NCBI GenBank assembly: GCA_013239625.1
Contig: MU053588.1
Location: 583,988 to 647,987 of the forward strand
Source of the DNA: Lama guanicoe
Lineage: Eukaryota
Reading direction: 5' to 3'
DNA: 64,000 nt
The translations under genes and the position numbers were made by a program. The notes under the pieces were generated by a model. It saw only the letters and a list, made by a program, of their open reading frames with translations. It was not told where the DNA came from and did no database searches. Of this stretch, positions 23,340 through 36,811 are shown piece by piece; position 1 is the stretch's first letter, and every line of letters starts with the position of its first letter.

Positions 23340-23345
23340 TTTATT
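23340..23345 (-). terminator. Poly(A) signal AATAAA of the WDR87 paralog
   Basis: ~150 nt past the ancestral stop (23492), about the same spacing as in WDR87 (56337-56342). Confidence 0.65.
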
Positions 23346-24865
23346 CAGTACACAGTAATAGATTTCTGGAACTGAATGAAAACGGGTCTTTGTCTAGCCC
23401 CACCTTAAAGTGGGAACAGGTAAAGAGGCTTAAAATCTGTGGCCCAGGCATACTTTCCAATAAGATCTCAAGGTGCTAATATTAGGCCATATCAGAGAGT
23501 AGGAGTAGGGATGTTGGGCAGCTTCTCGGTACGGTAAGGATTGACTTGTGGTAGGCCTTTCCAGGCACGTTCTAGGAACCCATAGTGGGCAATACCCACA
23601 GGTTGGATAGTATGCACCCTGTTCTGCCCAGGCAAGGGTACAACTCCCTGGAACTCAAGGGGACCTGCAGGGGCATGAGAACTACCACAAAACAGGCCAT
23701 AGAATAACCGTTCACCAAGTACCAGCTCCTCAGTTTTCAGGGCCTTTTTGTAGATGGTCTCTTGAGATTGGAGTTTCTTTCTCTGCAGTAACTCTAGCAG
23801 CAGCTTCTGGATTCGGGGGGACTTAAGTTGGTACACGTCCATGAGGCGATAGAACTGTTCCATCTGAGCAGCAGTGTCTCTTGCCTATCGCTGCTGCAAC
23901 ATCCGCAAAACATGGTACAGTGCCACAAACGTCTCCCATCGAGGCACCGCTTCCTTTTCTTTAGAGATGGGCTGTGCCTTTTTCTCCAGTTGGGGCAACT
24001 TGAGGGCCCTGCCTTTACCCTTAAAAGCCCTGAGATCCTTCTGAAACATCAGTGCTAGAGTTTGTTTTTCCACAGAACTATGGGCACCTGTGAAAATGTC
24101 TCTTGTGGCAGGATAAAAATACTGCATTTCCATCTCTTTGAGAACACTGGATAACTGCTGTGCCCATGCATGCCTGTAAGGTTCTCCTAAAAGATGCCAA
24201 TTTATAGCCTTTGGGTCTTGAATCCTGTTGGTAGGTGATGGTAACACTGGTGTACGGATAGGCAGGGCTTTCTTCTTTGTCTTGTGAAATATGGGGAGCT
24301 CACCCCTTCCCCTCAAGGTCCAGAAGTCCAAGGACAGGGATTTTTTATCCACAGAGGGATAGACAGCTGTAGGACCATCCTTTCTGATTGGATAAATGTG
24401 CTTTAACTCCTTGATAGCCGTGGATAACTGTTGTACCTGCTTCTTCCTGTAGGACTCAGCTGAGAGATGCCAATTGAGAGCTGGTGGGGACTGAGTCCTC
24501 TTAGTAGCTGAGAACACTGGTTCAGGAATAGAGAATGGCTCCAGACAGCTCTCCATTTCTTTTCTTCCAATTGGAGGGATCACTTTTAAGTGTACTGGAC
24601 TCAAAACATCTTTATAGGGTTGTGATATATCTAGGGGACCTATCTGTGTGTTCTGCTGGAGGTGTTTAGCAATGGCTTTAAGATTGGACAGATGCAGGCA
24701 TTTCAAATATCCCTTTGAAGAGAAGTGTCTGAGGAGTTGGTCAGTCTATGGAAACTCTCCCTTGAAAGTTGTTCTGCTTCCAGCCTTATTAAGGCATTAC
24801 TAATCCAGTCCTCATCTGAGACTCTTTCTTCTGAGTGGTATGGCCTTTTAGCTGAAATAGAGGTA

Positions 24866-24925
24866 AGGGCTGGGGCAGGGGCTGGGGTGGGGGCCAGGGT
24901 TGGGGCTGGGGCTGGGGCTGGGGTC
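24866..24925 (-). repeat. (CCAGCC)n hexamer repeat encoding Pro-Ala run
   Basis: ggggct units on +; TPAPAPAPTLAPTPAPAPA on -. Confidence 0.85.
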
Positions 24926-34386: not shown

Positions 34387-34554
34387 CTCCATTTGTCTTA
34401 AAGACAGTTCTGCCCAGTTTAAGGAGACAAAATAGTTGACCTCGTTGGAGTAGAAGCAGATGAAAGGCTTGCTCTGGGGCTGGTAAGGTTCTTGGTATAG
34501 AGTCTCAGGCCAGTCTCTCAGTACAACCACATCATCCTTTGGTTTTCCATCAGC
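34387..34554 (-). other. WDR87-paralog coding exon 2 (168 nt, open)
   Basis: ctctctcag|GCT ... GAG|gtaaat; phase 0-0; ADGKPKDDVVVLRDWPETL...RQME. Confidence 0.8.
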
Positions 34555-36688
34555 CTGAGAGAGAAGAGTGGGCTGAGCTAAGAGGACTGAGTCCTCACTC
34601 ACTCATTCATTTAATAAAGGTTTATTGAGGGATTAGTGGAAATTCATTGTTATTTATCTAATCAACATTTGTTCACCCTGCCACTAGAAAGCACTGTTGG
34701 GGGGGGGCGGTTATCCCTCCTTCACCCTCAGAATGCGTCCTAATTCATCAAAGTACCTTCCAGCCTTTCTGAACCAAAGTTCCTTAAGACAAGTAAGACC
34801 TAATATCCCAAAGTATCCATTCTACATAATAAATTAATTCTTCTCTATTTATCTGGAATACTACTAGTTATGGACCATCCTTAAGGGAACTGAGAAAATA
34901 GTCCCTCAAACCATTTTCTGTGTTCTATGGGTCAGATGAGGAACCACATTTGAGAAAGCCTGTTATGTTCTGTGACAAACACTGGCAATACAATAATGAG
35001 CAAAAGAGATACAATCTTAGCTTTCAAAAGATACGAGTCCAGTGGAAAATACCTTAAACAGACAACTAACAAGTGACTATACAAAACAGGCAAAGCATTC
35101 AAAAGAACAAGATACAATTCTATGTGAATGTGACAAAGGAACCCCACCTTGACAAATATGTCTACCTGTCATGGTTGGAACAACTCTTCAGAGTTCTTGC
35201 CTACACCAGAAGGCCCACTCCTGTCACCATCATAGTCATGGTATACAGCCTATGGGAAACTCATATTTCACAGACATGGAAAGCCCACCATGTGTGACAA
35301 TTAGACCCAGTGTCATGCACCTCCCTCACTATTCTTCATGTGCATCCAAGGAAACATGTGCTTTTCACAACATGGAGTTAGCTGAATTCTAACCCAGTGG
35401 AGTGTGTGTGTGTGTGTGCGCACATCTATCAAGGGAAATATGTTACCTTTTAACAAGTTACACAGTAGAATGTGTACAATATACACTACCTTCCAGGCAC
35501 TGTAGCATGTACCTAGGATGTAGGTACATGAACTCCTCATTCTGACCAGCCAAAACTGAGGCTCATGAAGTCTACTTTTAAAGTAACCTCTTCTCAGAAG
35601 ATACTTGTGCTATGTACTTGCCTCTTCAACAATGCTCCATGAATCTAATTCTCTGAGTTTCTCTACCTTAGAATTTGAAGTATGACCACCTAAGCTGGAA
35701 AGTATAATACTCAATTGAACTAAAGTGTTAATACTTTTTTACTCACAATGCCCATCATGGCTGCTTCCTTCACAAAGGATTTGAGACTATACCGAGGCCA
35801 TTATCCACAACTTAGAATCTCTCTTCTCCCTCTGTTTCTCATTTTCAGGTCTTTGAGTATTTTGAGAGAATACAGAGAGATGGAGAGCTTCTAGCACTCA
35901 CTGTCATTGCTAATTCAGTGACAACATCAGAGTTGAGAGGATCTTGGTATCTGAGCTGCTAATTGCCTCTTCATTGAACCAGAAAGCTCATTTACATACC
36001 CCTTATTTCACCACTGATTGAATAGTTAATCACCATTCCTCTCCTCCTTTCCAGACTTCATGTACAAATAATTCATTCACTCATTCAGCAATATCAATGC
36101 GTGTCTACAGAGGACTCCAAGCAATGCATCTGTGCCTGGTACTACTGTTACATACTCTATATCAATCCCTGTTCTATCCTCTCTCCCCTCCTTCCATCCC
36201 AATAAAACTCAGATCTTATTTAGGGTGATGGATGGACTCAGAAATTCTGGCAATACCATAGAGTGACTGGCACAGTTCTGTGCTCTCTGATCTTCACTCT
36301 TCTACCTACTTTCAACTTAAAGATGACACCTGGAAGTGTAGCAACTATCTTGCAAACTTATGATAATAAGTTAAATATTAAGCAGGTGGAAAGAGAGAAA
36401 AGGAACATGGTTCCTTGACATCATGTAAGACAAAAATGCCTCTTGCTTGTTTAATCCATTTAAGACCATTTTCTGTTTTTCTGGGTTTTTTGTTTGTTTG
36501 TTTGTTTGTTTTGCAGAGCATGTTCTAATTATAACTAATGTTTTCTTAGTCTAGAAGTGGGAGTTGTTCAGGGGCATGGGAGGGCCCTTCCAAGGCTGCT
36601 CCCACGTTGCCCATGCCACAGGCTGCCTTGGCAGGGATAGATAATTAGTCCAAGCCATCACCATGTGCATATCACTCATTCACATCAC

Positions 36689-36811
36689 CTTTATATCCTT
36701 CAGGATATTTTTTATGAGGACTTTCAAGTCCTTCCACTCAGGAATAAGTCTGGGTGAAGGCGACATCCTTGTGATACTCCAGCAGTTAATAGACATCTTC
36801 GATTACAGAAC
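36689..36811 (-). other. WDR87-paralog first coding exon (ATG 36766; in-frame upstream ATG 36796)
   Basis: Acceptor cttttgccttccacag|G at 36812/36811; MSPSPRLIPEWKDLKVLIKNILKDIK; donor AAG|gtgatg at 36688. Confidence 0.8.

What the first reader, a model, noticed from the sequence alone, without database searches (positions are those of the whole stretch)
23340..36811. A complete second WDR87-family gene in tandem with WDR87, apparently disabled after long divergence
Seen: five coding exons; the splice phases comparable within this window match WDR87, one exon has the identical length (272 nt), acceptors are intact and a poly(A) signal sits at the equivalent place. The protein is strongly but conservatively diverged, with its own coiled-coil and acidic regions, yet lesions are fairly sparse. 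Inference: it was a distinct functional giant protein for a long time and was lost late in this lineage. Human has a pseudogene WDR87BP near WDR87 (recalled), so the gene may have been lost independently in several lineages and be intact and uncharacterised in others.
Basis: partly seen in the sequence, partly recalled or inferred. Interest (0 to 1): 0.7.

Follow-up and report, generated by a model that had tools for sequence, protein, structure and literature searches.

The report
Lost placental WDR87 sister gene, camelids
Next to the sperm-tail gene WDR87 lies a broken copy of an old sister gene that many other placental mammals still carry whole under a vague database name, and it appears to have been lost separately in camelids and in African apes.

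Summary
Observation confirmed. The minus strand holds five exons (36811-23492, about 3,119 codons) of a WDR87 paralog, with 8 stops, 7 frameshifts and a GC donor. The neighbouring WDR87 last exon is open for 1,831 codons.

It is not a local duplicate. It falls in a clade (B, 'WDR87-like') sister to WDR87 that arose on the placental stem; 35 retrieved proteins of 2,600 aa or more (many redundant) look whole, from armadillo to orangutan.

Between this window and Camelus, exon 3 differs at 62 of 947 residues, against 7 of 961 for WDR87. On both branches changes hit conserved sites at the neutral share (18 of 45), but not on the camelid stem (10 of 79). Constraint therefore ended about the camel-llama split (about 16 My). 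Camelus status stays open: Bactrian exon 3 is still an open frame.

Chimpanzee, bonobo and gorilla models are truncated while orangutan's is whole, which fits a separate loss and the human symbol WDR87BP. A sperm-tail scaffold role is inferred from WDR87, untested. Lesions were not checked in reads. No study of this paralog turned up in my searches, and the scan had not noted it elsewhere.

The parts
46751..48250 (-). CpG island about 10 kb upstream of coding exon 1; candidate promoter and non-coding first exon (inferred)
   Evidence: CpG obs/exp 0.61-0.94, GC 0.57-0.67. A warthog WDR87-like model translates the matching stretch as its 5' end: score 246 against at most 44 in 20 shuffles, with frameshifts, so conserved and non-coding
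36689..36811 (-). Coding exon 1 (ATG at 36796, 36 codons, phase-0 donor GTGATG). It has its own acceptor, so a non-coding exon should lie upstream
   Evidence: the translation resembles the orangutan N-terminus
34387..34554 (-). Coding exon 2, 168 nt, open, AG/GT
   Evidence: 85-90% identical to camel models
31082..33974 (-). Coding exon 3: tandem WD40 propellers, linker and helical repeats
32598..32600 (-). First premature stop (TAG, codon 551; Gln in orthologs)
32530..32568 (-). 19-bp tandem duplication, frameshift
32410..32415 (-). 2-nt deletion, frameshift (approximate place)
31825..31827 (-). Premature stop (TGA; Arg in camel)
31080..31081 (-). Exon 3 donor reads GC where WDR87 has GT; a probable splice lesion
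   Evidence: The unnamed camel-type ORF P0001 ends at this junction, as an in-frame GT donor would make it (inference)
30343..30614 (-). Coding exon 4, 272 nt, open, AG/GT
23492..29407 (-). Coding exon 5: conserved motif block, Glu/Lys-rich coiled-coil-like region, acidic tract and C-terminal domain with a 91-aa internal duplication. Five frameshifts (near 28560, 27695, 27080, 25680, 24740) and six stops (27844, 27485, 27380, 26994, 26022, 23885)
   Evidence: the same 11 lesions with pig, cattle and orangutan templates
23340..23345 (-). AATAAA poly(A) signal, 147 nt after the stop
56337..64000 (-). 3' part of intact WDR87: exon 3 part to 63130, exon 62654-62383, last exon 61991-56494 (open), AATAAA 56342-56337

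Best explanation
This is the camelid pseudogene of WDR87B, a tandem sister of WDR87 born by duplication on the placental stem and kept as a ~2,700-3,300 aa protein in many placental orders. Shown: the gene anatomy, the lesions in this assembly, the clade, purifying patterns in orthologs and on the camelid stem, and neutral-like change after the camel-llama split. Inferred: the intact protein works like WDR87, as a spermatid and sperm-tail scaffold in which two beta-propellers and helical repeats bind partners and a long charged coiled-coil region acts as a spacer or rod. Partial redundancy with WDR87 let the B copy be lost more than once: in camelids about 16 My ago, and separately in African apes. 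Any transcript here would stop at codon 551, well upstream of later junctions, and should be a nonsense-mediated-decay target (established rule, not tested).
For: Tree of the exon-3 region, 63 rows: A 24 rows (SH-aLRT 99), B 32 rows (100), sisters (99), marsupials and monotremes outside. Thirteen further sequences, 12 of them unnamed profile hits, add no third mammalian lineage. 35 of 145 B-type proteins held are 2,600 aa or longer and carry all four checked regions, none with X (many are isoforms or close species). A and B proteins are listed on contigs of identical length in hippo, manatee, sifaka, tenrec, hedgehog and dromedary, which fits conserved linkage. Window type against Camelus: WDR87 7 of 961, WDR87B 62 of 947 (Fisher p 7e-13), whereas in five other species pairs B is only 1.1-1.4 times A. 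Share of changes at conserved sites: window branch 9 of 26, Camelus branch 9 of 19, neutral expectation 43%, camelid stem 10 of 79, control lineages 7-14% (p 2e-5 against controls, 7e-4 against the stem). Stops expected under neutrality since the split 5.3-7.6, seen 8. Orangutan model 3,149 aa; chimpanzee, bonobo and gorilla models 364-736 aa. Fold: two propellers plus helical repeats. WDR87 in the sperm midpiece with CFAP47: passages of PMC11462348 and PMC11506864 citing Liao 2022.
Against: The lesions were not confirmed in reads, and 0 of 9 window ORFs looked up exactly were in the protein collection. Five of seven frameshifts are 1-nt deletions, the commonest assembly error. Bactrian exon 3 is open for 948 codons (P0001, P0184) where 2-4 lesions would be expected if neutral (P 0.02-0.14). 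The 7 Bactrian-dromedary differences all avoid conserved sites (0 of 7; about 0.02 if neutral). The Bactrian model skips most of exon 5, but models of intact species also skip large parts of it, so the skip proves nothing. 13 window-camel differences could not be polarised and were left out. Rates are protein-based; no dN/dS was possible without camel DNA. RefSeq can 'correct' lesions (PMC12127551 passage); the hippo and manatee models are flagged low quality. No expression or function data were obtained for any WDR87B.
Confidence: 0.85

Rival explanations
1. The loss is confined to New World camelids. Camelus keeps a whole or nearly whole WDR87B under relaxed or shifted selection, so the window's lesions all arose after the split.
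For: The Bactrian model and an unnamed ORF lack all 4 exon-3 lesions and both C-terminal lesions of the window. 0 of 7 Bactrian-dromedary changes fall at conserved sites.
Against: The Camelus branch has 9 of 19 changes at conserved sites, several of them radical (p 3e-4 against controls), and its length matches the window branch (0.030 against 0.036). The dromedary annotation is split into 152-aa and 853-aa pieces at a Trp codon.
Confidence: 0.25
2. The gene is intact in this species and the lesions are assembly errors.
For: Five 1-nt deletions, several in or near short runs; no read-level check.
Against: The adjacent WDR87 last exon, of similar make-up, is open for 1,831 codons. Eight stops, most a single base change from the ortholog's residue, in the number neutrality predicts, plus a 19-bp duplication. 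The nine-fold excess of amino-acid change is independent of the frame breaks. 14 DNA runs from 5 organisms hold 83-93% of sampled words, which fits a sound assembly but cannot test single sites.
Confidence: 0.03
3. It is a dead-on-arrival or lineage-specific duplicate of WDR87 that never had a function of its own.
For: Tandem position, the same exon plan, and 79% DNA identity at the 3' end.
Against: A placental-wide clade with whole-looking members and purifying patterns on all eight control lineages; orthologs are 75-94% identical over exon 3 against 57% for the paralog.
Confidence: 0.02
4. WDR87B has a role of its own, not redundant with WDR87 (for example another flagellar structure, or motile cilia), and its losses follow lineage-specific changes in sperm or mating biology.
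For: About 40% divergence in the propeller region, a different coiled-coil region and a B-specific 91-aa duplication, all kept across placental orders.
Against: No functional data. Repeated loss beside an intact paralog is more simply explained by dispensability.
Confidence: 0.3

Closest known systems
WDR87 (NYD-SP11), testis-enriched WD40 protein of the sperm midpiece that binds CFAP47 (Liao et al. 2022, PMID 36571501; seen only as cited in PMC11462348 and PMC11506864)
   Same: Exon plan and phases, the 272-nt exon, tandem propellers plus helical repeats, giant Glu/Lys-rich last exon, conserved C-terminal domain, poly(A) position
   Different: Separate clade since the placental stem; 57% identity over exon 3; coiled-coil region not alignable with confidence; 91-aa C-terminal duplication; broken here
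RefSeq/Ensembl 'WD repeat-containing protein 87-like' models (for example orangutan XP_054318500, deer XP_070307058, pig A0A8D0XI52, Bactrian camel XP_010962134)
   Same: These are its orthologs
   Different: Whole-looking in many orders; often mislabelled WDR87 or partly spliced out by gene predictors; no study found
Human WDR87BP pseudogene (symbol seen in a table of PMC12715488; its place beside WDR87 is recalled)
   Same: Most likely the ortholog: ape B sequences group with this gene, and African ape models are truncated
   Different: The truncation points seen in ape models differ from the window's lesions, and an intact orangutan model separates the two losses; no named human sequence was examined
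Losses of long-established testis genes (TCAM1, TEX16, TEX21, TSSK5, CYCT; Zhang et al. 2010, PMC2864566, passages)
   Same: An old, constrained gene, probably of the testis, disabled in some lineages
   Different: A divergent paralog remains intact next door, so it is not unitary in the strict sense; 'WDR' does not occur in that paper's main text (supplements not read)

Membership tests
WDR87 family | N-terminal WD40 region forming tandem beta-propellers | tested here: met
   PF00400 passes its cut-off in an intact ortholog (28 against 27 bits). AlphaFold model of an ortholog's exon-3 product: strands over residues 8-580, best matches are double-propeller proteins; mean pLDDT 67, pTM 0.45
WDR87 family | Shared exon plan with a giant last exon | tested here: met
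   Two comparable junctions have equal phase, and the 272-nt exon is shared; the 5' WDR87 exons lie outside the window
WDR87 family | Phylogenetic placement inside WDR87, with single non-placental outgroups | tested here: met
WDR87 family | Testis expression, sperm midpiece location, CFAP47 binding | not tested
Ortholog of human WDR87BP | Groups with the ape B-type genes | tested here: met
   Same clade as the Pongo, Theropithecus and Saguinus B proteins; the 3' UTR in one frame resembles the Pongo C-terminal tail
Ortholog of human WDR87BP | Synteny and sequence match with the human locus | not testable with these tools
   No human genome available; the order ZNF cluster, WDR87BP, WDR87 is recalled
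Pseudogene of a long-established gene | Several disabling lesions | tested here: met
   8 stops, 7 frameshifts, GC donor
Pseudogene of a long-established gene | Intact, constrained orthologs in outgroups | tested here: met
Pseudogene of a long-established gene | Lesions fixed in the species and present in raw reads | tested here: inconclusive
   No read-level result; the word shares cannot resolve single sites; 0 of 9 ORFs found by exact look-up
Unitary pseudogene (strict sense) | No functional counterpart in the genome | tested here: not met
   The paralog WDR87 is intact next door; no whole genome was held to look for a second B copy
Recent duplicated (dead-on-arrival) pseudogene | Lineage-specific and neutral since its birth | tested here: not met

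The most novel reading that the evidence does not exclude
WDR87B is an unrecognised ~3,000-aa placental sperm-tail protein with a role of its own, present in orangutans, monkeys, rodents, pigs, cattle, horses and carnivores but lost independently in the human-chimpanzee-gorilla line, in camelids and perhaps in gibbons, hippos and whales. It would be a previously unlisted gene loss on the human lineage, with natural knockouts in livestock against which sperm structure can be compared.
Probability: 0.3. Interest if true: 0.65.

Novelty: new member of a known kind. Interest (0 to 1): 0.42.

Why it matters
It turns a database footnote (human WDR87BP, 'WDR87-like' models) into a defined placental gene with a datable origin and at least two separate losses, one probably on our own lineage. 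WDR87 is tied to sperm-tail assembly through CFAP47, so mouse or livestock work on WDR87 may be buffered by a paralog that humans and camelids lack, and mislabelled models may have mixed the two genes in published comparisons. The process itself, loss of a partly redundant paralog, is ordinary.

Tried and rejected
No whole genome is held for this window, so a second B copy elsewhere was not excluded. No read-level check of the lesions was obtained. One search listed 24 runs, of which 20 hold the stretch or part of it. Shares under 0.2 were ignored. Exact look-up of 9 window ORFs found 0, which is uninformative because start sites must match. A homolog search with one exon-5 ORF scored none of 5,295 candidates at E 1e-10 (low-complexity query). 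I first read a stop in exon 2; one search showed the exon is open. I first took the Bactrian model's skipped stretches as signs of lesions, then rejected that because seal and cattle models skip one of the same stretches and dog models vary from 2,213 to 3,183 aa. The PDB sequence search gave only generic WD40 hits, and the fold search gave generic double propellers at 11-15% identity, so no specific complex can be named. The WDR87 last-exon comparisons and the codon comparison had frame errors and were replaced. A complex prediction was not run, as no evidence pointed to a particular partner. The search of earlier findings met 'wdr87' in none.

Full report
Source and setting. The window is camelid DNA. 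Its WDR87 (minus strand, 56494 to the window's end) matches one camelid protein at 290 of 290 residues in exon 3 and the Camelus-type proteins at 289 of 290; in the last exon it differs from the latter by about 2.6%. A New World camelid is the likely source (inference). No whole genome is held.

Observation. Five coding exons lie on the minus strand at 36811-36689, 34554-34387, 33974-31082, 30614-30343 and 29407-23492, together 9,357 coding nt or about 3,119 codons. All acceptors are AG. The two junctions that can be compared have the phases of WDR87, exon 4 is 272 nt in both genes, and AATAAA follows the stop by 147 nt against 152 nt. Frameshift-aware alignment gives the same 11 lesions in exon 5 with pig, cattle and orangutan templates (5 frameshifts, 6 stops; one further pair of marks at the poorly matched start of the pig template was ignored). 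Exon 3 has 4 lesions with camel, pig and orangutan templates: 2 stops, a 19-bp duplication and a 2-nt deletion. Exons 1, 2 and 4 are open. The exon 3 donor is GC. The first stop is codon 551.

What it is. Homolog searches gave two bands of mammalian hits, 72-94% and 52-69% identical to the window's WD40 region (90 hits, 118 hits). A tree of the exon-3 region (63 rows, chosen by me to spread over orders; quick IQ-TREE, SH-aLRT only) has WDR87 (24 rows, 99) and a second clade B (32 rows, 100) as sisters (99). Each holds afrotherians and boreoeutherians, B also armadillo, and marsupials and monotremes lie outside. Thirteen further sequences, 12 of them unnamed hits of a profile search of 1.84 billion representatives, add no third mammalian lineage. 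The duplication therefore falls between the marsupial split and the placental radiation. Of 145 B-type proteins held, 35 are 2,600 aa or longer and have the N-terminal region, the conserved mid motif, the late coiled-coil block and the C-terminus. They come from dogs, foxes, seals, cats, hyena, bats, pig, horse, sheep, cattle, deer, armadillo, manatee, tamarin, gelada, orangutan and a cotton rat, with much redundancy. In six species an A and a B protein are listed on contigs of identical length, as conserved linkage would give.

When it died. Over the exon-3 region the window-type and Camelus WDR87 differ at 7 of 961 residues, the B copies at 62 of 947 (p 7e-13). In five other species pairs B is only 1.1-1.4 times as divergent as A. 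Among alignment columns, 43% are conserved in non-camelid B proteins. Eight control lineages and six control pairs put 7-14% of their changes there, and the camelid stem 10 of 79. The window branch puts 9 of 26 there and the Camelus branch 9 of 19, indistinguishable from neutral (binomial p 0.76). Thirteen differences could not be polarised and were left out. The window branch's amino-acid change implies about 1.3-1.7% neutral DNA change, which predicts 5.3-7.6 stops over the gene; 8 are seen. Constraint thus lasted through most of the camelid stem and ended near the Old/New World split, given as about 16.3 My in PMC12127551 (passage). Against a dead Camelus copy: Bactrian exon 3 is open and its model lacks the window's six lesions in the regions it covers, and the 7 Bactrian-dromedary differences avoid conserved sites. 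For it: radical changes at conserved sites and a dromedary annotation split at a Trp codon. Camel exon 5 was not seen, so one loss or two is unresolved.

Other losses. Orangutan models are 3,141-3,149 aa. Chimpanzee models end in out-of-frame tails (448 and 736 aa), bonobo stops at 665 and gorilla at the equivalent of residue 691. Unnamed fragments seen on up to 267 contigs belong to the same stretch, and the 244-aa ones carry the same out-of-frame start as the chimpanzee piece, one being 97% identical to it; their species was not determined. This fits a loss in African apes and the human symbol WDR87BP (symbol seen in PMC12715488; its location is recalled). A siamang model ends in exon 4, the hippo model is flagged low quality, and no named whale B protein appeared among the hits; these are leads only.

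How it most likely works. An AlphaFold model of an ortholog's exon-3 product shows about 580 residues of strands, a low-confidence linker (606-799) and helical repeats (801-947); mean pLDDT is 67. Its best fold matches are double beta-propeller proteins at 11-15% identity, none specific. Exon 5 of intact orthologs is 25-30% Glu and 17-20% Lys over about 1,000 residues, like WDR87. WDR87 is testis-enriched, sits in the sperm midpiece and forms a complex with CFAP47 in tail assembly (passages of PMC11462348 and PMC11506864; the primary paper was seen only as a reference). I infer that WDR87B is a similar spermatid scaffold, partly redundant with WDR87 and so lost more than once; about 60% for a sperm-tail role of some kind. 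One person homozygous for a predicted WDR87 loss-of-function variant is reported (PMC4572071 passage; fertility not seen). In this genome no protein is expected. A CpG island at 46751-48250, conserved with warthog, is the likely promoter, so a non-coding transcript may persist.

Mosaic history. In a tree of the last 255 residues, A and B are separated by only about 0.09 changes per site, against 0.53 over exon 3 (FastTree, weak support, rodent and hedgehog rows unplaced). In the window the two 3' ends are 79% identical as DNA with exact runs of 37 and 43 nt, against 61% and at most 11 nt in exon 3. Gene conversion at the 3' end shortly before the placental radiation, perhaps again later, is the likely reason (inference; not tested with a formal method).

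Literature. Searches for WDR87 (91 papers, 40 listed), WDR87BP/WDR87B/WDR87-like (3 papers), and WDR87 with CFAP47 and sperm (28), pseudogene (29) or paralog (69), plus name variants (32), camelid gene loss (46) and unitary pseudogenes (56), listed no paper whose title or abstract start concerns this paralog. 'WDR' is absent from the main text of PMC2864566 and 'WDR87' from that of PMC12127551. I read passages only (and one section of PMC9374477) and no supplements; large gene-loss screens may list it in supplements, and subscription journals are not covered.

Verdict. It is an ordinary process acting on an unstudied but already annotated gene. Its value lies in defining WDR87B as a placental-wide gene and in its repeated loss, probably including humans. 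Interest 0.42.

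Noticed in passing
window 12237-13262 (+): Open C2H2 zinc-finger array (about 10 repeats of 84 nt), the last exon of a KRAB-type ZNF gene downstream of WDR87B. It fits the recalled ZNF cluster beside WDR87.
   Followed up: no
window 46751-48250: CpG island retained upstream of the dead gene; the matching warthog DNA is wrongly translated as the N-terminus of a RefSeq model.
   Followed up: partly
window 23495-24253 against 56497-57255: The 3' ends of the two paralogs are much closer than the rest of the genes (79% DNA identity, exact runs of 37 and 43 nt), which suggests gene conversion.
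   Followed up: partly
window about 23950-24550 (-): A 91-aa internal duplication near the C-terminus, present in pig, dog and orangutan B proteins and absent from WDR87; gene predictors often splice one unit out.
   Followed up: partly
window 23420-23495 (-): The 3' UTR in another frame resembles the extra C-terminal tail of orangutan and baboon B proteins, so catarrhines seem to have extended the protein by a frameshift near the stop.
   Followed up: partly
window 59659-60138 (-): WDR87 has a 123-nt repeat in three copies in its coiled-coil exon; the window-type protein is 2,965 aa against 2,895 aa for the Camelus-type ones.
   Followed up: no
window 42369-43499 (+): LINE-1 ORF2-like remnants (recognised from the translation, not searched), interrupted by the window's only N run at 43168-43199.
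   Followed up: no
PMC10454124, cattle gene ENSBTAG00000040318: An 'uncharacterized' cattle gene was equated with WDR87 by 93.5% identity to a buffalo protein. Given the mislabelling seen here it could be either paralog.
   Followed up: no
P0013 (hippo), P0017 (siamang), P0072 (hedgehog): Short or low-quality B models that may mark further losses; no named whale B protein among the hits.
   Followed up: no
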